Assembly: GCA_009391535.1 (NCBI GenBank)
Contig: VFHP01000024.1
Span: 209,976-273,975, forward strand
Length of the DNA stretch: 64,000 nucleotides
Source: SAR202 cluster bacterium
GTDB taxonomy: Bacteria; Chloroflexota; Dehalococcoidia; Lucifugimonadales; UBA2985
Direction of reading: 5' to 3'
Below the pieces are notes generated by a model that did not search any database, was not told the origin of the DNA, and saw only the letters and a program-made list of their open reading frames with translations. Positions 38,549 to 48,713 of this stretch are shown in pieces (within the stretch, counting starts at the first letter, position 1; each line of letters starts with the position of its first letter). The translations under genes were made by a program, and so were the position numbers.

Positions 38549-39007
38549 TTAGGAAGCAGACAAATCTTGTCTGTAACCTTCATAAGATTTCTTTACATCC
38601 TCGTGCTTAAGGCTCAGTATAGCTGCAGCCATGTAGGCGGCATTTCTGGCGCCCCATAATCCTATAGCCATACACGCTACAGGTATGCCGGGTGGCATTT
38701 GAGCAATCGTATATAAAGAATCCACACCATTCATATCGCTTGAGGCTATAGGTACTCCGATAATTGGTAGAGTAGTCCAAGATGCCAAAGCTCCAGGTAA
38801 AGCTGCTGACCCACCTGCTCCAGCGATTATTACTTCAATACCCCTGCCTGCTGCGTTTTTCCCGTAGTTTCTAGTCTCCTCTGGCTTCCTGTGAGCGGAT
38901 ATAACGGATGATTCGTAACTTATCCCTAGACTATCTAACACTTTGGCTGTTTCGTCTGCTATATCTTGGTCCGATTTACTACCTATTACTATTCCTACTA
39001 ACGGCAT
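38549..39007 (-). CDS. purE: N5-carboxyaminoimidazole ribonucleotide mutase
   Basis: 152 aa with VGIVIGSKSD, SAHRKPE and AGAGGSAALPG. Confidence 0.9.
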   Translation of the reverse strand: MPLVGIVIGSKSDQDIADETAKVLDSLGISYESSVISAHRKPEETRNYGKNAAGRGIEVIIAGAGGSAALPGALASWTTLPIIGVPIASSDMNGVDSLYTIAQMPPGIPVACMAIGLWGARNAAYMAAAILSLKHEDVKKSYEGYRQDLSAS

Positions 39008-39026
39008 TGTGTTCTCCTATAATTTA

Positions 39027-40292
39027 TCAAATATTTAATGCGATATCATTGCGATATGACGCACCTTCAAATCGGATGGTTTCCACATTTTGATATGCTT
39101 TTGATCTAGCAATATTCATGTCATCTGCCTTACTTACTACTGTCAACACTCTACCCCCATTGGTGACTATACCGTCATTTGGTAGATCGGCATTTTTCGT
39201 GCCCCCATGGAAAATTATTCCCTCTTCGTCCACATTATCTAATCCATCAATTTTGTAGCCAATATCGAAGTTTGCAGGATAACCCGCGGATGTCACTACT
39301 ATACCAACACAAGACTCATTACTCCAGGATATGTCAATCTCGTCAAGTCGTTCTTCTATGACGGCAGTAAGTATTGATGGCATATCTGAGACAAGAAGTG
39401 GCAACACGACCTGTGTTTCTGGATCCCCAAACCTACAATTGAATTCTAGAACCTTTGGTCCGTCTGATGTTAATATTACTCCACCGTACAATATACCTTT
39501 GTATTTTGACTTTTCTGATGCTAATGCTTTTATTGTGGGTAGCATTATTTTTGATCTAATTTCATTTGATAATTCTTCGTTCCAGAAACTAGGCGGGCTG
39601 TAGCTACCCATTCCACCAGTGTTAGGTCCTAAATCATAATCGTAAGCTCTTTTGTAGTCACAAGCAGCTATTAGGTTTGAGCAGTGAACACCATCAGTGA
39701 ACCCGAAAACACTTACTTCTCTTCCAGACAAGAATTCTTCGATCAGTACGGATCGTCCTGCATCACCGAATACTTTTTCCACCATGAAGGATTCCAGAGC
39801 CTCTAGTGCTTCTTCCTGTGTGTAGGCAATTATTACACCTTTACCAGCAGCAAGACCATCTGCTTTGATAACCAGAGGTAAGTTTTGTTTCTTAACGTAG
39901 TCTCTAGCCGTATCAAAGGATTGAAAAACTGCAAAATCGCCTGTTGGGATACCATATTTCCTCATCAGATTCTTGGCGAACACTTTACTGCTTTCTATTC
40001 TGGCAGCACTTTGAGTTGGACCGAATATTCTCTGTCCCATTATTTGGAAGTGATCAACTATTCCTTGAGAGAGCGGAGTTTCAGGGCCAATCATTGTCAA
40101 GTCGATCTCATACTTTACGGCTGCATCTGCTAATGCCTCGAAATTGTTTTGTTCTAAAGAAAGATTTGTTGCTATCTGTGCAGTGCCAGCGTTTCCTGGA
40201 GCAACGTATACGTTTTCAACAAGGGAACTTTGGCTCAATTTCCAGGCTATTGCGTGTTCCCGAGAGCCATTCCCCACTACAAGTATATTCAA
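39027..40292 (-). CDS. purD: phosphoribosylamine-glycine ligase
   Basis: 421 aa with a TTG start (GAGGA 7 nt upstream), ILVVGNGSREHA and an ATP-grasp body. Confidence 0.9.
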   Translation of the reverse strand: MNILVVGNGSREHAIAWKLSQSSLVENVYVAPGNAGTAQIATNLSLEQNNFEALADAAVKYEIDLTMIGPETPLSQGIVDHFQIMGQRIFGPTQSAARIESSKVFAKNLMRKYGIPTGDFAVFQSFDTARDYVKKQNLPLVIKADGLAAGKGVIIAYTQEEALEALESFMVEKVFGDAGRSVLIEEFLSGREVSVFGFTDGVHCSNLIAACDYKRAYDYDLGPNTGGMGSYSPPSFWNEELSNEIRSKIMLPTIKALASEKSKYKGILYGGVILTSDGPKVLEFNCRFGDPETQVVLPLLVSDMPSILTAVIEERLDEIDISWSNESCVGIVVTSAGYPANFDIGYKIDGLDNVDEEGIIFHGGTKNADLPNDGIVTNGGRVLTVVSKADDMNIARSKAYQNVETIRFEGASYRNDIALNI

Positions 40293-40508: not shown

Positions 40509-42155
40509 TTATTCTTTACCGAAAAAATCTTGTCGGTCTTGTTCAAGCTCTTCTAGAGTTTCAGCAGTATCTGGTTTTTCGTCAGGACCCATTAGGGTGG
40601 AATACGATTCCGGTGTGCCAAAGTCTCTAACTTTGACTACTATCGGCATGGGTACTGAATGTCCAAAGATCAATGATTGCTGTTTGCTTTCAAGTTTACT
40701 AAGAACAGATCTGAGTTCTCTGGATCCACTTGCACCTGACATGACCGAATCAACATCTTTTTCGTTGTCCAGTAAACACGATAATTTCGTTCCAAGTTGA
40801 CTCATTACTTCATCGTCAATCCCACTAGGTCGTTGATCTACTATTAGTAAAGTCACCCTTCTCTTCCTGTCTTCTCTTGCAATTGTTCCAAAAACAGTTT
40901 GAGAGGCTATGCCTTGATTCAGAAATTTATGAGCTTCTTCTATAGTTATAACTAACGGTTTTGGCATTATGGATTCATCACCCATTGCTGCATCAGCTCT
41001 TTCCGCATACATACTGTGGATTCGCCTGGTTAGTAGATTAGTTACTAATATATAAGCATCCAAGTTATCCTTGAAGCCTCCAAACTCCAATACTATGTGC
41101 TTGCCGGCGTCTATGTTATCCAATATTTGTTCCACTAATCTCCCCGTAGACTTTTCTTCTAAGAAACTGAAACGTGTCAATCCTCTTATTCTGTTTTGCA
41201 ACGTTGATAAAGCCATTAGGTTCAAGTTATTTTTGTTAGATAATTCTTGTAGCGCCTCCCGATCCAATGCGATCAATTTCTTGATCCAATTGTCTTTTCC
41301 GTATACATCTCGTAGGGTGTAACAAGCATCTGCAGCCACAGAAGACAGGTTTAGATTTTCTCTAAGAATTTCTATGTCTTCTGGTTCGATCTCGTTATAT
41401 CCGATTTTTACCAAATAATCTGGGGTTATATTGCGCCTCCGAGAGTAATACTCGTCTAATGAGAACACAGCCACCTTAGAAGGGAACAAGTTTTTGAGCC
41501 CTTTTACACTACCTGGTCCTTCAAAACTTCCTGCCCATCCATATTCGTTTTCCATATCGAATACTAGGTTGACTGCGGTATTTTTTTGCACAATACCTAT
41601 CAACAACAATCTAGTCAGGAATGTTTTTCCAGTGCCACTCTTACCGAATACACCGTTGGATCGTTTGACAAATTCTTCCAAATTGAGCCTTACTCTGGAC
41701 TCCAAATCTGGCGGAGTTCCAATCCAAAAATGCCTTTGGTCTTCTGAACCAAACACCATATTTATATCTTCGTCTGAGGCGAGGTAAACTTTGGAAAAAT
41801 GATTAGGTATATTTCGGGCAGGTTTGGGGGGATCACTATCAGAAATAGTGCCACTTATCGTCAATGCCATGATTACGCGTATAGTTGCATACATGGCAGC
41901 TTTGGATGTTATAGATGCCATGACCGGATCAGAAAGGTCAGGGGGATTGGTTTTGATAGACTGATCAGTGGATTGTAGGGTTATATCAGTTATTATACCA
42001 AAAAACCTCATGTTTTTCCCCTGTATGACTACTTGCTGGCCACCGCCTATACCCTCGATATCTGCTTCCGGGTCAAGAAGAACATCCACACCCTGATTTA
42101 GAGATCCTCCAATCACGAGCCCCAGATAATTGCCAACGGGGTTATCTGTAGTCAT
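40509..42155 (-). CDS. HerA-like (DUF87 / FtsK-HerA superfamily) hexameric ATPase
   Basis: 548 aa. A beta-rich, barrel-like N-terminal segment is followed by Walker A GVFGKSGTGKTF, Walker B LVITIEEAH (hhhhEEAH) and LLIVDQRPSGID (the QRPS motif of HerA/FtsK/VirB4-class ATPases). Confidence 0.8.
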   Translation of the reverse strand: MTTDNPVGNYLGLVIGGSLNQGVDVLLDPEADIEGIGGGQQVVIQGKNMRFFGIITDITLQSTDQSIKTNPPDLSDPVMASITSKAAMYATIRVIMALTISGTISDSDPPKPARNIPNHFSKVYLASDEDINMVFGSEDQRHFWIGTPPDLESRVRLNLEEFVKRSNGVFGKSGTGKTFLTRLLLIGIVQKNTAVNLVFDMENEYGWAGSFEGPGSVKGLKNLFPSKVAVFSLDEYYSRRRNITPDYLVKIGYNEIEPEDIEILRENLNLSSVAADACYTLRDVYGKDNWIKKLIALDREALQELSNKNNLNLMALSTLQNRIRGLTRFSFLEEKSTGRLVEQILDNIDAGKHIVLEFGGFKDNLDAYILVTNLLTRRIHSMYAERADAAMGDESIMPKPLVITIEEAHKFLNQGIASQTVFGTIAREDRKRRVTLLIVDQRPSGIDDEVMSQLGTKLSCLLDNEKDVDSVMSGASGSRELRSVLSKLESKQQSLIFGHSVPMPIVVKVRDFGTPESYSTLMGPDEKPDTAETLEELEQDRQDFFGKE

Positions 42156-42730
42156 CTTGTTACCCTTTTCAATATGTATTCGACTTTTTTCAATTCTCCG
42201 GGAAGGTTAGATATCAAATGGACCCCCACGGTTTTAAGGAATTCTGTGTTATCTAGTTGGTATTTAAATCCATTCCTGATGTATGCTGATATGACTTCTT
42301 CAATGGCTTCTAGGTTTGATGTGGCTAGAGTCCTTAATACAGACATATTGGATATTATGGGTTTTGTGTCTTCCTCATCGCAAGTGTGAACAAATGAATA
42401 TATGGGAGGTGGCACAGGAGGAAGATGATAAAGCATCTCAGACCCCATTTTGTGGCCAACTATGATTGCTTCAAAATCTGTACGCAATAGGTGTTTCAAT
42501 TGTGGATTGTTGTTATAAACGTCTTCTTCTTTTTCTTCGTTTTGTCCTCTGGCAGTTGGTTTTCTTGTTGGGTCCAACCCCCCTGTATATATGTTATAAA
42601 CCACTCCGAATGTAGGATAGTGTCCGTTGGTTTTAACCAAGTCTCCTAGAGCGGGCGAATGGTACAATTCATAACATTGAGCTGTGAAAGTTCCGGTTGA
42701 TGTTGCTATAACGTCACCTAATCTAACCAT
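42152..42730 (-). CDS. 192-aa protein of unknown function, translationally coupled to the HerA-like gene
   Basis: Its TGA overlaps the HerA-like ATG (ATGA at 42152-42155). The N-terminal ~50 aa look like a small beta-barrel (MVRLGDVIATSTGTFTAQCYE...GDLVKT...FGVVYNI). These are followed by an acidic/Pro-rich linker (LPPVPPPIY) and a helical C-terminus. I recognise no family. Confidence 0.6.
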   Translation of the reverse strand: MVRLGDVIATSTGTFTAQCYELYHSPALGDLVKTNGHYPTFGVVYNIYTGGLDPTRKPTARGQNEEKEEDVYNNNPQLKHLLRTDFEAIIVGHKMGSEMLYHLPPVPPPIYSFVHTCDEEDTKPIISNMSVLRTLATSNLEAIEEVISAYIRNGFKYQLDNTEFLKTVGVHLISNLPGELKKVEYILKRVTR

Positions 42731-42777: not shown

Positions 42778-43986
42778 TTATAACCATTTTGTACGCTTAG
42801 ACCTGTTTTTTTCTGAAGTATAATTTGGTAAATTATTCCTCATTAAAGCCTCTTCGAGAACCTTTCTAAACTCTTCTCTGTCATGGTTTGTTACTACTGC
42901 CTGTTCGTGTGCCTCCATCAAGGCTACCGGATAACCTCGTCCCTTATCGCATTGATTGACAATTGCTGCATGGGTTAGATCTAGTAAATATTTGTTGGAG
43001 TGAACCCATTCTGGGATTTCTACTCTGGATATTTCGTTACCGACGTGCAGGTAATAAAAATGGATTTTATGATGATCGTAGTACCTTTCTACTATTGAGG
43101 ACGTTGACATAAATGATTCTGATCTTTCCCCCACCTCCAATAGTTTATCGAATAGATTTCTGTCCATTATTTCAGTAAATCCATCGCATGGTCTTTCACC
43201 ACTTGTTAATGAGCCACAATGAATAGAACAATTTGCATTTTGATAGGGGCAATTATGTTTATCTAACCTTAAGGCGTTAGCAACCTCTTTGCTTCGCGGG
43301 AGACTTATATAAGAGGCTAGAGCCAAAGGAACAGCCCGGCTTATTTTATGCAGTCTTGCTAGGGCAGGCAGGAACATATCGTCTAATAGTCTATTTCTCA
43401 CAAAATCTGGGTATGTTTGACCAACTATGCTCCAAAGTATCAGAGATCCGTCTATCAAAGCCAAGGTAGGGGTGTCACTCCGAGTTTCTTCCATTAGGTC
43501 TGCCAAAGATATCATTTCCTCAACAGCTCGTAATGCACCTAGTAGAGGCCCTTCTAACGTTTGATATCTGTTACCGTTTGTTTCGTGTAGTTGAAGGTCT
43601 TCTTTTTCTGAGAAAAGCCTTGGATGGTTGCTGAGCGCAGCAATAGGGGAATCTCCGTATCGGATATGAACCTTTCCTATGTTTATCAAACAACATTGGA
43701 TTGGCAAATGCCTGTCTATGTCTATGTGCGAGCCGTCTACGGCTAACACACTGTGATTTTCAGGTAGATCAGGCAACTTATATTTTGATGAGAGCGATTT
43801 GGATATTCCAGGAATAAGGAAATTAGTATTACTAGATGTTCTTTTAGCTTCAATTTCCGTTGCATTAGAGCCAAGGAGTGTATCGTAGGATCTATTGAGT
43901 TGTTCGTGGTAAAACTTGTTCTGTTCCCTGATGTTATTGGTTGCACCCTCGATTTGTTGTACAACGTTATGTATATCTAGTGACAT
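42778..43986 (-). CDS. NurA-like nuclease
   Basis: 402 aa with NurA-domain motifs LAVDGSHID, ALIDGSLILW and GRGYPVALMEAHEQAVV. It also carries a Cys-rich insert (CPYQNANCSIHCGSLTSGERPC). Confidence 0.75.
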   Translation of the reverse strand: MSLDIHNVVQQIEGATNNIREQNKFYHEQLNRSYDTLLGSNATEIEAKRTSSNTNFLIPGISKSLSSKYKLPDLPENHSVLAVDGSHIDIDRHLPIQCCLINIGKVHIRYGDSPIAALSNHPRLFSEKEDLQLHETNGNRYQTLEGPLLGALRAVEEMISLADLMEETRSDTPTLALIDGSLILWSIVGQTYPDFVRNRLLDDMFLPALARLHKISRAVPLALASYISLPRSKEVANALRLDKHNCPYQNANCSIHCGSLTSGERPCDGFTEIMDRNLFDKLLEVGERSESFMSTSSIVERYYDHHKIHFYYLHVGNEISRVEIPEWVHSNKYLLDLTHAAIVNQCDKGRGYPVALMEAHEQAVVTNHDREEFRKVLEEALMRNNLPNYTSEKNRSKRTKWL

Positions 43987-44074: not shown

Positions 44075-45283
44075 CTAGAAAAACTTTAGGAATACCTCAT
44101 TGGAAAATAGATTGCCTTTGTCTGTTAATTTCAATGTACCGTTTTCGTTTATCATCAAACCTAAATCTATAGCTTCAGCAATGGATTCTTTAAAGACTTC
44201 ATGGATAGACAATCCGAAACGATGATTGAAAGACTCCTCGCTGATGCCTTCTGACAATCTGAGTCCTAGCATTATGGTTTCTGACATCTCTAATTTGGAT
44301 TCTATATATTCGATGTTTTCCACTGTGGGCATTGTGTTTATTGTTTGGGAGGGGAGACGTTTATTATAGTTTTTGTTTGGGTCTATATGGTTCAATCTTT
44401 TTATGTATTGTCTGGGGGAGTTAATATTGTTGAATCTTGTTTTATGTACATATGAGTGACCTCCTGGTCCCATTCCTATATATTGTTTGTTCCTCCAATA
44501 AGTTAAATTGTGGAGACTATTTAAACCGGGCTTAGACCAATTGGAAATCTCGTACTGATCATAAACTGTGTTTTCCAATATTTTGTTCGCGGTTGTGTAC
44601 ATGTCAGCGGCTAGATCTTGATCTGGTGACGGTATGTTAGCTGAGTCAATGCTCTTCTTCATGGGTGTACCTGGTTCCAAGGTGAGACAGTATAGAGATA
44701 AATGATCTGGGTTTATCTCTATAGCTTGATTGAGTGTGTCTTCCCATTGTGTCAAGGTTTGGCGAGGTAACCCGTACATGAAATCTAGGCTTATATTGTT
44801 GAATCCGGCTTCGCGTGCCTTAGCAAAAGCGGTTAACGCGTCTTCTGAAGAATGCCTTCTACCTAATATAGTTAATAGATTATCGTCCAAGCTTTGTACT
44901 CCAAAGCTTAGTCTGTTTATCCCTGTTTTCCTCAGATAGGTTAGCTTGTCGGTGTCTATATCATTTGGATTACACTCTATTGTAATTTCTGGAGCGCTTT
45001 CTATCTGGAAAAATTTATATACCTGATTGAGTATAGATTCCAAATGACCTTCTGGTAGATAGGATGGGGTTCCTCCGCCAAAGAATATAGTTCTAACACT
45101 TAAATCATTCAGTGAATCTCCCCAATAGTGTATTTCTGAATTTATTGCCTTTACGTAATCTGGAATAAGAGATTCTATACCGGAATAAGTGTTGAAATCA
45201 CAATATGGACATTTAGTTTGACAAAAAGGTATGTGAATATATATGGATAGTGAATCGTCTTGTATCTCGGGATTAATCATCAT
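44075..45283 (-). CDS. hemW: radical SAM haem chaperone HemW / oxygen-independent coproporphyrinogen oxidase-like protein
   Basis: 402 aa with the radical-SAM cluster motif CQTKCPYCDF, GGGTPS, and a HemN_C-like tail. Confidence 0.8.
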   Translation of the reverse strand: MMINPEIQDDSLSIYIHIPFCQTKCPYCDFNTYSGIESLIPDYVKAINSEIHYWGDSLNDLSVRTIFFGGGTPSYLPEGHLESILNQVYKFFQIESAPEITIECNPNDIDTDKLTYLRKTGINRLSFGVQSLDDNLLTILGRRHSSEDALTAFAKAREAGFNNISLDFMYGLPRQTLTQWEDTLNQAIEINPDHLSLYCLTLEPGTPMKKSIDSANIPSPDQDLAADMYTTANKILENTVYDQYEISNWSKPGLNSLHNLTYWRNKQYIGMGPGGHSYVHKTRFNNINSPRQYIKRLNHIDPNKNYNKRLPSQTINTMPTVENIEYIESKLEMSETIMLGLRLSEGISEESFNHRFGLSIHEVFKESIAEAIDLGLMINENGTLKLTDKGNLFSNEVFLKFF

Positions 45284-46380
45284 ACATTAAAAAGAAAGTT
45301 TATGATGTCGCCATCTCTTACGTTGTAAGATTTCCCTTCCAGTTTTACAAGTCCTTTCTTTTTCCCAGCTCCTAAACTCCCAGAGTCCAATAAGTTTTGA
45401 TACGATATAACTTCTGCTCTGATGAATCCCCGCTCTATGTCTGTGTGAATTTTACCGGCAGCTTTTGAGGCCTCTATGTCCTTCTCTATCGTCCATGCTT
45501 TTACTTCATCTGATCCGACAGTGAAGAAAGAAATTAGTCCTAGTAACTCATATGAAGAACGTATGGCTTTATCGAGGGCAGGTTCATCAATGCCCATAAA
45601 TTCCCTAAACTCATTGGATTCATTCATATCCATGATTCCTAGTTCCATCTCTATTTTCCCAGATAATGTTACTACTCCCACACCAGGGCGGGCGAATTGA
45701 GATCTTAATTCATCTTCTATAATTTGTGAGTTATCTATATTGTTTTCACCGATGTTCCATACTATCAACATCGGTTTAGCTGTGAGGAACTGAAAATTCG
45801 ACATAATTTTTTGTTCCTCTTCGGAGATATCCTGTTCTCTTATTGGTATTTCTTGCTCTAAGTCCTTTTTGACTCTAGAGAGTATCATTTGTTCTTTGAG
45901 TTTAATGTCACGTTCATTGGATTTGGCACTTTTTAATTCGTTGGCCAATTTTTCCAATCTGCGTTCAAGAATTGTTAGGTCGGAAAACGATAGTTCCAGA
46001 TCCATTAGGCTAATATCTCTAAATGGATCTATTGAGCCTTCGACGTGAGGTACCGAAGGGTCTTCAAAAGACCTTACTACTTGTAATAAAGCGTCAGCAC
46101 GTTGCAAGTAGTTCAAGTATTCACCGGATATGCCTTTTGACTTAATATTGACCTCCTGAGATTTTGGGAAGTCAATGTACTTTACTTCTGCCGGTGTTGT
46201 TTTGGCTGGATTAAACATATCCTGCAATATATTTAATCTAGGATCGTGTACTTTAGCCACGCCTAAATTTGGCTTATTGGTGTTTAGCATAGAATTGGTA
46301 ATAGTGGATTCACCACCACTAAGGGCGCCGAAAACAGTGGTTTTTCCACATTGAGGCAATCCTATTATTCCGATTTCCAC
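45280..46380 (-). CDS. ychF: ribosome-associated ATPase YchF
   Basis: 366 aa with the P-loop GIIGLPQCGKTT and a C-terminal TGS-like region (IHTDIERGFIRAEV...GKSYNVRDGDI). There is a 4-nt overlap with hemW. Confidence 0.9.
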   Translation of the reverse strand: MEIGIIGLPQCGKTTVFGALSGGESTITNSMLNTNKPNLGVAKVHDPRLNILQDMFNPAKTTPAEVKYIDFPKSQEVNIKSKGISGEYLNYLQRADALLQVVRSFEDPSVPHVEGSIDPFRDISLMDLELSFSDLTILERRLEKLANELKSAKSNERDIKLKEQMILSRVKKDLEQEIPIREQDISEEEQKIMSNFQFLTAKPMLIVWNIGENNIDNSQIIEDELRSQFARPGVGVVTLSGKIEMELGIMDMNESNEFREFMGIDEPALDKAIRSSYELLGLISFFTVGSDEVKAWTIEKDIEASKAAGKIHTDIERGFIRAEVISYQNLLDSGSLGAGKKKGLVKLEGKSYNVRDGDIINFLFNV

Positions 46381-46388
46381 ATTACACC

Positions 46389-48713
46389 TTATTCAATGGC
46401 GTATAAGGTTCCATCTTCAGAAGCTAAGTACAATACACCATCTGCAACTACAGGAATTGTAGATATATTGTTGGCTGCGTCTATTTGCCATAAGGGTTCC
46501 CCATTATGTTTATCAACCGCGTGTAATTTACCCGTTGCATCGGTTAGCAATAAAGTGTCTTTAACTATGGTGGATGAGGATATTTTCAATGGCCTTACGT
46601 CGTATAGCCATTCTCTCTTACCCGTTTCATCATTAAGGGCATGCAATAGTCCTTCTTGTGTCGATACGTACACTCTTTGACCATCTGACGAAGTTGTTGA
46701 GGAGATTGTACCTCCCATAGGCCTGATCCAGTTTACACCTTTAGGTAAACCTGGGTGATCCATCATGCCCCACAGCCAAAGTTGTAGTCTAAGGCGGTAA
46801 TATCTACTGAAAAACAGTACCTCTTCCTCGTGTAAATTTACTGAAATTACATATCCATTCCTGTAAGTTACATAGATGGAGTCACCTGATATGTTCGGAG
46901 ATCCCATAATATGGGGACCTAAACCGCGAAAGGAAAATCTCCTTTTCCCTGTATTTGTATCGTGTATAGTTACTCTACCGTCCATAGAGGCAATAACAAG
47001 AAGGTTATTTGATATGGCAGGTGTGTTTGTTAACCAGTCTCTGGTCAGATAGTCCCATTTTAGCTCCCCAGTCAAGGCGTCTAAAGCATATAGTTTATTA
47101 TCTCCTGATCCAATATATAAAACTCCATCTTTCACGATAGGGGATCCTTCAAGGGGAAGAGCATCCGGGTTGTCTGGCATGACAAATTGCCATTTTTTAT
47201 CCCCATTGTACCTGTCTAATGCCAGAACCTTGTTATTTCTTAGACCAATAAAAATTAAGTTGTCAGTTACTGCTGGAGATGAATCAACGGGGATTTCCGT
47301 AGGGCGTTCCCATATTATAGCCCCAGAATTCCTATTTAACGCTACAATTCTGTGGTCTTGAGTATTGAGATAGACCATATCACCCTTCAAAACGGGTGTT
47401 GATACTATTTTTGCATTGGTTTCAAACGCCCATTTTACATTGCCAGAGATAGACAGATCTTCAGTTTCAATGGTATGTAGTCCAGAATGATCCCTGTGGA
47501 TCATTGCCCATTCACCCGGCTCCGAAATCGAGCTTATGTTGGATGTTGGAGGTGGCAAAGGAAAAGTTATGTCCAAGAATTGAGTTATAGAGAAGGCTAG
47601 GAAGCATATTGATATACCTCCTACCAATGTTCTCCTGATCCTGTCCCTAGTTTCTTTTATTGAAGATCGTTCTTCTGAAGTTGCAACTTCTTCGTCTTCT
47701 CCGGCGCCCGCTCGCTTCAATATGCTTCTACAACCCATGCACCATTCTATTCCCGAACTGTTTTCATATCCGCATATTCTGCATCTAATGCTGGTGCCAT
47801 ACTCGACAGTGTATTCTCTTGTTATTTGGTTTTCCAATCCAGGGATTGGCTTTTGTGTTTGGTTGTCGTTTGCCATACTAGGTATATTACCAGAATTACT
47901 AATTAAAGACAGGCCTATTAAATCATTCATGAATAACCTTGCATTTTCATAACGCATACGTGGATGAGGAGAAAGAACTTTGTTAAATATGAAGTCCACT
48001 TCTTTAGGGAGTGTTCTATTCAGTGTGCTAGGTCCCTTGGGTGCAGAACTAGTTTTTTGACTGTATGACACTGAGTGATCCAAGGATTTATACGGTAGCT
48101 CCCCTGTTATTAACCTGTATGCTATAACCCCTATTGAATATGTGTTGGAGCTTAAGCTCATAGGCTGGTTGTTCAATGATTCCGGTGCTATGTAAGGTGT
48201 TTCAGGTCTGTTTATAGCTATATAAGTATTGTCATTTGAGCTTCTTAATGCCTCGCTTATAGCCAAACCGCTAATTTTGACTTCAGAAGTTATGGTATTA
48301 ACGAATACCTTACTTGGAGTTATATTAGTGTGATATATTCCCATATCGTTGAAAAAACATATAGTGTCAGACAGATTTTTCAGGATAGTTATGATTTGCG
48401 ATAAACTATTCATATTGTCCAGAATCGTCTCGAGGCTTTGATATTCACAATATTCGGTGACTACACAAAATTTTCCATTCTCTTCGCCATGATAGATGAC
48501 ATCAACTAATCCAGGATGGTTTGTGGTTGAGATCAATTCAGATCGGCGGTTCATTTCAAGAGAAATTTGAGGAAAGCTAGACAAATTTGGACGAAACATC
48601 TTTATAACGACTACTTCATTTTTGTTATAGGTGCTACTGGCTTTGTAGGTCGACGAGATACTATTAGATCCAAGGACTTCTAATATCTCGTATCCTAAAA
48701 TTTTTCTTTCCAA
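46389..48713 (-). CDS. Ser/Thr protein kinase homologue with degenerate catalytic motifs (predicted pseudokinase), zinc ribbon, TM helix and PQQ-like beta-propeller
   Basis: 774 aa. The kinase fold is recognisable (VVIK, YIAPES, HPRMRY). However, the Gly-loop is LGSNSISS, HRD is replaced by HTN, and DFG by GLA. CRICGYENSSGIEWCMGC follows, then a TM segment (LVGGISICFLAFSITQFL). The rest is repeated 'G.l.A.d..tG...W' beta-propeller blades. Confidence 0.8.
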   Translation of the reverse strand: MERKILGYEILEVLGSNSISSTYKASSTYNKNEVVVIKMFRPNLSSFPQISLEMNRRSELISTTNHPGLVDVIYHGEENGKFCVVTEYCEYQSLETILDNMNSLSQIITILKNLSDTICFFNDMGIYHTNITPSKVFVNTITSEVKISGLAISEALRSSNDNTYIAINRPETPYIAPESLNNQPMSLSSNTYSIGVIAYRLITGELPYKSLDHSVSYSQKTSSAPKGPSTLNRTLPKEVDFIFNKVLSPHPRMRYENARLFMNDLIGLSLISNSGNIPSMANDNQTQKPIPGLENQITREYTVEYGTSIRCRICGYENSSGIEWCMGCRSILKRAGAGEDEEVATSEERSSIKETRDRIRRTLVGGISICFLAFSITQFLDITFPLPPPTSNISSISEPGEWAMIHRDHSGLHTIETEDLSISGNVKWAFETNAKIVSTPVLKGDMVYLNTQDHRIVALNRNSGAIIWERPTEIPVDSSPAVTDNLIFIGLRNNKVLALDRYNGDKKWQFVMPDNPDALPLEGSPIVKDGVLYIGSGDNKLYALDALTGELKWDYLTRDWLTNTPAISNNLLVIASMDGRVTIHDTNTGKRRFSFRGLGPHIMGSPNISGDSIYVTYRNGYVISVNLHEEEVLFFSRYYRLRLQLWLWGMMDHPGLPKGVNWIRPMGGTISSTTSSDGQRVYVSTQEGLLHALNDETGKREWLYDVRPLKISSSTIVKDTLLLTDATGKLHAVDKHNGEPLWQIDAANNISTIPVVADGVLYLASEDGTLYAIE

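What the first reader, a model, noticed from the sequence alone, without database searches (positions are those of the whole stretch)
42152..42730. Orphan 192-aa protein with a possible stand-alone HAS-barrel-like N-terminus
Seen in sequence: the first ~50 residues (MVRLGDVIATSTGTFTAQCYELYHSPALGDLVKTNGHYPTFGVVYNIYTG) alternate small and hydrophobic residues. This resembles the beta-barrel that opens HerA proteins; compare the HerA-like N-terminus here, VGNYLGLVIGGSLNQGVDVLL...RFFGIITDITLQ. They are followed by an acidic low-complexity linker (GQNEEKEEDVYNNNPQ), a proline run (LPPVPPPIY) and a helical tail.

Inference: it could cap or extend the HerA ring, or bridge it to NurA. A free-standing barrel partner for HerA is not something I know to be described.
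Basis: inference. Interest (0 to 1): 0.6.

Follow-up and report, generated by a model that had tools for sequence, protein, structure and literature searches.

The report
HerA-barrel-only partner protein of HerA
This small gene is real and encodes a copy of only the front beta-barrel of the DNA-pumping HerA motor; it sits directly before HerA in hundreds of Chloroflexota genomes, so these bacteria probably have an unstudied third subunit in their NurA-HerA DNA-end-processing machine.

Summary
The ORF at 42152-42730 (minus strand, 192 aa) is a real gene under purifying selection (dN/dS 0.08-0.17).

The structural guess holds. Residues 1-116 are a HAS barrel. This is supported by Pfam PF09378 (E 2.9e-5, just under the cut-off; 45 of 132 relatives also hit), by an AlphaFold model whose 50 listed PDB matches are all HerA-type chains, and by a collinear profile alignment to its own HerA (residues 6-139).

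- It is not an orphan. The family has at least 957 clusters at 50% identity and occurs in 157 species genomes, almost all Dehalococcoidia.
- The "acidic linker" is not a linker. It is the most conserved motif of the family, and it lies inside the barrel.
- The proline run is also part of the barrel.

**Context.**
- The gene's stop codon overlaps the HerA start in 68 of 82 related loci, and in three further loci found by starting from HerA.
- NurA is usually upstream but at a variable distance.
- A Firmicutes relative has NurA-X-HerA-Mre11-Rad50. Another genome has RecJ-X-HerA.
- HerA keeps its own barrel, so this is not a split gene.

**Best reading.** It is a non-catalytic copy of the HerA N-terminal module that acts as a HerA subunit. 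How it binds is untested. I found no paper describing it.

The parts
42152..42730 (-). Gene X: 192-aa stand-alone HAS-barrel protein, made of a barrel plus a helical domain.
   Evidence: ORF. dN/dS 0.08-0.17. Family alignments. AlphaFold model with pLDDT 84.7 and pTM 0.81.
42383..42730 (-). Residues 1-116: HAS-barrel domain. Strands at 3-10, 14-19, 31-34, 40-51, 82-95, 98-100 and 113-116.
   Evidence: Pfam PF09378 E 2.9e-5; 45 of 132 relatives hit it. All 50 listed Foldseek PDB hits are HerA-type chains, E 2e-5 to 7e-4. hhalign to own HerA 6-139, E 5.9e-4. The strand and helix order matches the model of the window's HerA.
42488..42577 (-). Residues 52-81: conserved excursion inside the barrel. 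Basic part DPxR(K/R)PxARG, acidic part (D/E)ExxEE(D)xY, then NPQLxxLLRT.
   Evidence: Conservation and charge per column: R56 100%, R61 99%, E65 98%, E68 100%. Invariant columns. About 10 residues of the acidic part are an insertion relative to HerA. pLDDT is 62-71 here.
42401..42424 (-). Residues 103-110 (LPPVPPPI): conserved proline loop before the last barrel strand.
   Evidence: L103, P104, P105 and P107 are invariant or nearly so. The loop aligns with HerA 'PPKPARNIPNHF'.
42155..42382 (-). Residues 117-192: five-helix C-terminal domain. The first two helices still align with HerA; the rest matches nothing known.
   Evidence: Helices 119-127, 130-136, 143-155, 161-175 and 180-191, pLDDT about 90. 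No Pfam, PDB-sequence or HerA profile match beyond residue 130.
42152..42155 (-). ATGA overlap: the X stop codon and the HerA start codon share bases, a sign of translational coupling.
   Evidence: Sequence. The same 4-nt overlap occurs in 60 of 82 related loci, and some overlap in 68 of 82.
40509..42155 (-). HerA ATPase (548 aa) with its own HAS barrel, Walker A GKSGTGKT, and the DUF87 core.
   Evidence: Pfam DUF87 4e-28 plus HAS-barrel 7.6e-4. Relatives carry PF09378 plus PF01935. The model matches TdpA, Sulfolobus, Thermococcus and Deinococcus HerA.
42778..43986 (-). NurA nuclease (402 aa), 47 nt upstream of X on the same strand.
   Evidence: Pfam NurA 4.3e-26, 92 bits. It lies upstream of X in 65 related loci, at a variable distance.

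Best explanation
Gene X encodes a non-catalytic copy of the N-terminal module of HerA: the HAS barrel plus the two helices that follow it. The ATPase is replaced by a small helical domain.

X is co-translated with HerA and most likely serves as a subunit of the HerA ring. My preferred mechanism, which is inferred, is that X barrels bind at or next to the barrel (N-terminal) face of the HerA hexamer. There its conserved basic-acidic excursion would change how a nuclease (NurA, or RecJ in some genomes) or the DNA docks. Every solved HerA complex uses that face to hold its effector.

Shown here: the gene is real, the fold, the relationship to HerA, the tight genetic coupling to HerA, and the DNA-repair context.

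Inferred: physical binding to HerA, the binding site, and the effect on the nuclease.
For: Real gene: dN/dS 0.08-0.17, similar to NurA and HerA.

Fold and homology:
- Pfam HAS-barrel E 2.9e-5, with 45 of 132 relatives also hitting it.
- AlphaFold pLDDT 84.7.
- All 50 listed PDB fold matches are HerA-type chains, over 129-298 alignment columns (mostly 130-150).
- A collinear profile alignment to its own HerA 6-139, and the same order of strands and helices as the HerA model.

Coupling to HerA:
- The X stop overlaps the HerA start in 68 of 82 loci.
- Three of three loci found by starting from HerA have X directly upstream. Two of these have no NurA within 4 kb.

Not a split gene: HerA keeps its own barrel.

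Repair context:
- NurA-X-HerA-Mre11-Rad50 in a Firmicutes genome.
- RecJ-X-HerA in L086.
- Conserved housekeeping neighbours, even GC content, and no PADLOC hit for X or NurA.

Docking precedent: in Deinococcus, NurA binds an acidic patch (D78, E80, D81) on the HerA barrel (PMC9960219). X carries an invariant acidic cluster in the matching region of its barrel.
Against: - There is no direct evidence of binding.
- The window protein itself scores 0.7 bits below the Pfam cut-off.
- The hhalign probability is only 29%.
- Foldseek TM-scores normalised to X are modest, at 0.34-0.49.
- The acidic-patch analogy could not be mapped residue by residue, because Deinococcus HerA was not retrieved by sequence.
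- Distance correlations among the three proteins are all about 0.93-0.94. The partial correlations only weakly favour X-HerA (0.57) over X-NurA (0.42).
Confidence: 0.55

Rival explanations
1. X is an assembly factor. It binds HerA protomers through barrel-to-barrel contacts and sets or stabilises the ring size (hexamer versus heptamer), and is not a permanent part of the working machine.
For: The same coupling evidence applies. HAS barrels form the crown that holds HerA and F1-type rings together (established knowledge; describes the barrel ring). A study of the oligomeric formation of archaeal HerA and the assembly of HerA-NurA exists (PMC5715905, abstract only).
Against: Overlap-coupled translation suggests roughly equal amounts of X and HerA, which fits a stable subunit better than a catalytic chaperone. 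Nothing here separates the two ideas.
Confidence: 0.15
2. X is a decoy or brake. By imitating the nuclease-docking face of HerA it holds NurA (or RecJ) away from HerA until DNA damage occurs.
For: X copies the barrel that NurA binds in known complexes. It has a conserved acidic cluster. NurA is usually in the same transcription direction upstream.
Against: X stays glued to HerA, not to NurA. NurA is separated by up to 3 kb of unrelated genes, or is not found in the fetched locus or within 4 kb, in several loci. The partial correlation is lower for X-NurA than for X-HerA.
Confidence: 0.12
3. X works on its own, for example as a small DNA-binding barrel protein, and is merely co-transcribed with HerA.
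For: Barrel folds of this general kind often bind nucleic acid (general knowledge). The conserved R56, R57 and R61 could contact DNA.
Against: A 4-nt overlap with HerA is kept in 60 of 82 loci, including a Firmicutes-labelled relative. No family member was seen away from HerA wherever the contig was long enough.
Confidence: 0.08
4. X is a decaying remnant of a partial HerA duplication, or a mis-called ORF.
For: It is homologous to the 5' part of the neighbouring gene.
Against: dN/dS is 0.08-0.17. There are 30 invariant columns among 14 sequences. Length stays at about 190-215 aa across 957 clusters. The fold prediction is confident.
Confidence: 0.01

Closest known systems
N-terminal HAS-barrel domain of HerA (Pfam PF09378), as in Sulfolobus HerA 4D2I, Thermococcus HerA-NurA 9X1M and TdpA 8WFD
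   Same: The same barrel fold with the same order of strands and helices. It is collinear with the window's own HerA residues 6-139.
   Different: X is free-standing, with no Walker A/B motifs and no RecA core. It has an extra conserved acidic insertion of about 10 residues and its own three-helix C-terminal end.
Two-component NurA-HerA end-resection complexes (archaeal; Deinococcus radiodurans 7F6D, PMC9960219)
   Same: NurA and HerA are both present and adjacent. A Firmicutes relative adds Mre11-Rad50, as in the archaeal operon.
   Different: Those systems are described as NurA dimer plus HerA hexamer only. Here a third gene lies between the two and is coupled to HerA.
HerA-effector defence complexes (Sir2-HerA/Nezha 8SUB and 8J4U, DUF4297-HerA 8ZIR and 9C1N, TdpAB 8WET)
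   Same: A HerA ring with a partner protein encoded next to it. The HerA chains of these complexes are among the top fold matches for X.
   Different: The partners there are enzymes (NADase, nuclease), not barrel copies. X and NurA have no PADLOC hit, and the locus sits among conserved housekeeping genes with even GC content.
UniProt automatic name 'Helicase HerA barrel domain-containing protein' (Dehalogenimonas sp. 4OHTPN, UniRef100_A0AAU8G9H7)
   Same: A member of the same family, 37% identical over 98% of X.
   Different: This is only an automatic domain label. Every other source name seen is 'hypothetical protein', and no paper was found.

Membership tests
HAS-barrel domain (Pfam PF09378) | Score at or above the Pfam gathering cut-off of 25.2 bits | tested here: inconclusive
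   The window protein scores 24.5 bits, E 2.9e-5, just below the cut-off. Of 132 relatives, 45 match at E<=0.01, the best at 2e-9. Some relatives carry a precomputed PF09378 label.
HAS-barrel domain (Pfam PF09378) | Beta-barrel fold that superimposes on the N-terminal domain of solved HerA structures | tested here: met
   The model has pLDDT 84.7. All 50 listed Foldseek PDB hits are HerA-type chains, probability 1.00, E 2e-5 to 7e-4. The superposition itself could not be inspected.
HAS-barrel domain (Pfam PF09378) | Collinear sequence-profile match to a bona fide HerA N-terminus | tested here: met
   hhalign of A2 against A4 aligns X 1-130 with HerA 6-139 over 119 columns, E 5.9e-4 but probability only 29%. 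The smaller profiles gave E 0.057 over X residues 2-58.
HerA / FtsK-HerA ATPases | Walker A and B motifs and a RecA-like core (DUF87, PF01935) | tested here: not met
   X has no DUF87 or P-loop hit. The sequence has no GK[ST] motif. After the barrel there are only helices. X is therefore not a HerA, only a copy of its N-terminal module.
NurA-HerA end-resection system (the locus) | A NurA-domain nuclease and a HerA ATPase encoded together | tested here: met
   NurA 92 bits and DUF87 99 bits, both above their cut-offs. The same order is seen in 65 related loci.
NurA-HerA end-resection system (the locus) | Genetic link to Mre11-Rad50 | tested here: inconclusive
   The link is present in one Firmicutes relative. 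In this window purD follows HerA. The rest of the window was not scanned for Mre11 or Rad50.
NurA-HerA end-resection system (the locus) | Physical NurA2-HerA6 complex with ATP-driven resection | not testable with these tools
   This needs biochemistry.
HerA-based anti-phage defence systems | Match of the partner proteins to defence-system models, in a mobile or variable context | tested here: not met
   X and NurA have no PADLOC hit, and HerA gives only generic hits. The ychF-hemW-nurA-X-herA-purD neighbourhood is conserved. GC content is even.

The most novel reading that the evidence does not exclude
X forms its own ring of HAS barrels that stacks on, or interleaves with, the HerA barrel crown. 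That would give a three-tier NurA / X / HerA machine in which a pseudo-subunit, not HerA itself, presents the nuclease-docking surface. It would be a new architecture for HerA motors and the first case of a barrel-only copy acting as the adaptor.
Probability: 0.25. Interest if true: 0.7.

Novelty: new variant of a known kind. Interest (0 to 1): 0.55.

Why it matters
HerA rings are under intense structural study, in NurA-HerA repair and in Sir2-HerA, DUF4297-HerA and TdpAB defence. In all of these the partner docks on the HerA barrel face.

A whole bacterial class, Dehalococcoidia, together with a Firmicutes-labelled genome (MAG), instead encodes an extra barrel-only copy that is translationally coupled to HerA. 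If this copy is a subunit, the two-component picture of bacterial NurA-HerA is incomplete for these lineages. It would also offer a natural experiment on how the barrel face controls which effector docks.

It also gives a name and a testable role to about a thousand clusters of 'hypothetical proteins'.

Tried and rejected
- **Complex prediction.** I built a paired alignment of X, a Gly-Ser linker and HerA from 11 loci (A3).
- **PDB by sequence.** A single-sequence search and a profile search found no relative. The only hits were chance-level matches to mevalonate diphosphate decarboxylase, E about 0.2.
- **Mapping the Deinococcus NurA-binding residues.** I tried to place D78, E80 and D81 onto X. 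Deinococcus HerA was not retrieved by sequence from the window's HerA, so there is no residue-level map.
- **A conserved fourth gene between NurA and X.** Rejected. The spacers hold unrelated, variable genes.
- **Split-gene idea (X supplies HerA's missing barrel).** Rejected. HerA has its own barrel.
- **Natural fusion P0081 (372 aa, NurA C-terminus plus X).** The joining segment looks like out-of-frame sequence, so I treated it as a probable frameshift or gene-calling artefact, not as evidence.
- **Mirror-tree correlations.** Dominated by shared ancestry and not decisive.
- **Promoter and terminator scan.** Nothing above the shuffled background.
- **Defence-system reading.** No support.

Full report
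**The observation.** It lies 47 nt downstream of a NurA gene (42778-43986). Its TGA stop overlaps the ATG of a HerA gene (40509-42155) as ATGA. Pfam confirms both neighbours: NurA at 4.3e-26, and HerA with DUF87 at 4.1e-28 plus a weak HAS-barrel hit at residues 12-104.

**It is a real gene.** In seven close pairs of orthologues, dN/dS for X is 0.08-0.17. NurA gives 0.08-0.14 and HerA 0.04-0.09. Fourteen homologues share 30 invariant columns.

**It is not an orphan.**
- A word-indexed search found only 13 relatives.
- A full profile search found 957 representative clusters at E<=1e-3, and 207 at E<=1e-30. Almost all are 190-215 aa.
- A genome scan found it in 157 species-level genomes. The 80 best are almost all Dehalococcoidia or other Chloroflexota MAGs.
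- Another member comes from a Firmicutes MAG.
- Source names are 'hypothetical protein'. The one exception is the UniRef automatic name 'Helicase HerA barrel domain-containing protein' for a Dehalogenimonas member.

**The fold.** Several lines of evidence agree.
- Pfam HAS-barrel matches residues 5-75 at E 2.9e-5 and 24.5 bits, which is 0.7 bits below the curated cut-off.
- Of 132 diverse relatives, 45 hit the same model, the best at 2e-9. The only other family hit was one relative's stray SelB winged-helix match.
- An AlphaFold model built from 14 sequences is confident (pLDDT 84.7, pTM 0.81). It shows strands at 3-51 and 82-116 followed by five helices at 119-191.
- Foldseek against the PDB returns only HerA-type chains in its 50 listed matches. 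These include Sulfolobus 4D2I, Thermococcus HerA-NurA 9X1M, TdpA, and the Sir2-HerA and DUF4297-HerA complexes. E-values are 2e-5 to 7e-4, over 129-298 alignment columns (mostly 130-150).
- A profile-profile comparison with the cognate HerA family aligns X 1-130 with HerA 6-139 over 119 collinear columns (E 5.9e-4, probability 29%).
- A model of the window's HerA has the same N-terminal order of elements: four strands, two short helices, a long strand, then two helices. That model matches solved HerA structures along its full length.

- The barrel does not end at residue 50. It ends near residue 116.
- The 'acidic low-complexity linker' (residues 52-81) is an excursion inside the barrel and is the best-conserved part of the family. 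R56 is conserved in 100% of sequences, K/R57 in 94%, R61 in 99%, E65 in 98% and E68 in 100%. Y72, P76, Q77, L78, L81 and L82 are also conserved.
- About ten residues of the acidic part are an insertion relative to HerA.
- The proline run (L103, P104, P105, P107, nearly invariant) aligns with HerA's own proline-rich loop before the last barrel strand.
- Beyond residue 130 the helical domain matches nothing in Pfam, in PDB sequences or in HerA.
- X has no P-loop, so it is not an ATPase.

**Genomic context.**
- In the 87 related loci, X lies directly upstream of HerA wherever the contig is long enough.
- The X stop overlaps the HerA start in 68 of 82 loci, and 60 of those have the 4-nt form.
- I also started from three HerA proteins chosen without regard to X. 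All three have an X homologue overlapping the HerA start, and two of them have no NurA within 4 kb.
- NurA is upstream on the same strand in 65 loci, but the median gap is 537 nt. The spacers carry unrelated, variable genes.
- More distant members keep the NurA-X-HerA order.
- A Firmicutes MAG has an overlapping five-gene operon: NurA-X-HerA-Mre11-Rad50.
- In one Dehalococcoidia MAG, RecJ sits directly before X-HerA.
- In the window's own clade the neighbourhood ychF-hemW-nurA-X-herA-purD is conserved. GC content is even across it. X and NurA match no PADLOC defence model.
- The context is therefore chromosomal DNA-end processing, not a mobile defence island.

**Mechanism.** The following are shown:
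- X is a copy of the HerA N-terminal module.
- HerA keeps its own barrel, so X is an addition and not a split-off piece.
- X and HerA are almost always translationally coupled, which is typical of subunits made in matched amounts.

From the literature, NurA docks on the HerA barrel face in both archaea and Deinococcus. In Deinococcus this depends on the acidic residues D78, E80 and D81 of the barrel (PMC9960219).

I infer that X binds HerA, probably at or beside the barrel face. I also infer that its conserved basic-acidic excursion alters nuclease or DNA docking. I could not test this. Distance correlations are uninformative beyond a slight edge for X-HerA.

The rivals are an assembly factor, a NurA decoy, and an independent DNA binder. 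A pseudogene is excluded.

**Comparison with what is known.** X is a member of the HAS-barrel fold class but not of the HerA ATPase family. The locus is a NurA-HerA system with one extra, conserved component. Eight full-text literature searches found no description of a barrel-only HerA partner or of this family. Only the automatic UniProt domain label exists. I therefore rate it a new variant of a known kind, of moderate interest.

Noticed in passing
L088/L089 5826-12990 (Firmicutes MAG GCA_013178045.1): An overlapping five-gene operon, NurA-X-HerA-Mre11(Metallophos)-Rad50. It is an archaeal-style break-repair cluster in a bacterium, with X inserted.
   Followed up: partly
L086 2217-6352 (Dehalococcoidia MAG JAUSJJ010000259): RecJ (DHH, DHHA1 and RecJ_OB domains) sits directly upstream of X-HerA, and no NurA is on the contig. 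Deinococcus RecJ is reported to interact with HerA (PMC4663267, title and abstract only).
   Followed up: partly
L001 4031-4294, L002 4695-4958, L003 638-901: The ~797-nt NurA-X spacer of one marine clade holds an 87-aa ORF beginning VYFSGHKGFHVELVF. This looks like an archaeo-eukaryotic primase / LigD-polymerase motif, possibly a gene fragment. The resemblance is from memory and was not tested.
   Followed up: no
Loci L014, L024, L027, L046, L048, L054, L056, L061, L066, L077, L080 (between NurA and X): In Dehalococcoidales the NurA-X spacer (1-3 kb) carries different unrelated genes in different genomes. By reading the sequences, these look like a small membrane protein, putative lipoproteins and an acetyltransferase-like ORF. 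X-HerA stays intact, so the spacer behaves like an insertion hot spot.
   Followed up: partly
L091 6275-6502: A second fragment, 59% identical to the HerA C-terminus (residues 466-545), lies about 640 nt downstream of the full HerA gene.
   Followed up: no
window 42674-42676 and 42380-42382 (codons C19 and C117 of X): Two cysteines are invariant in 14 homologues and highly conserved in 86, at the end of strand 2 and just after the last barrel strand. They might be a contact pair or a redox or metal site. This is unexplained.
   Followed up: no
window 36257-40292 and 44075-46380 (minus strand): The NurA-X-HerA cluster is embedded between what read as purine-synthesis genes (purC, purB, purE, purD) and hemW-like and ychF-like genes. 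The hemW, ychF and purD neighbours recur in many Dehalococcoidia loci, and some relatives have selB inserted before NurA. Gene names come from reading the sequences and from Pfam labels on relatives.
   Followed up: partly
window 46389-48713 (minus strand): A 774-aa ORF that reads like a Ser/Thr protein kinase fused to a zinc-ribbon-like CxxC pair, a membrane segment and PQQ-type beta-propeller repeats. It was not scanned against any library.
   Followed up: no
P0081 (372 aa, metagenome protein): An apparent fusion of a NurA C-terminal fragment with X through a scrambled-looking segment. It is probably a frameshift or gene-calling artefact rather than a true fusion.
   Followed up: no
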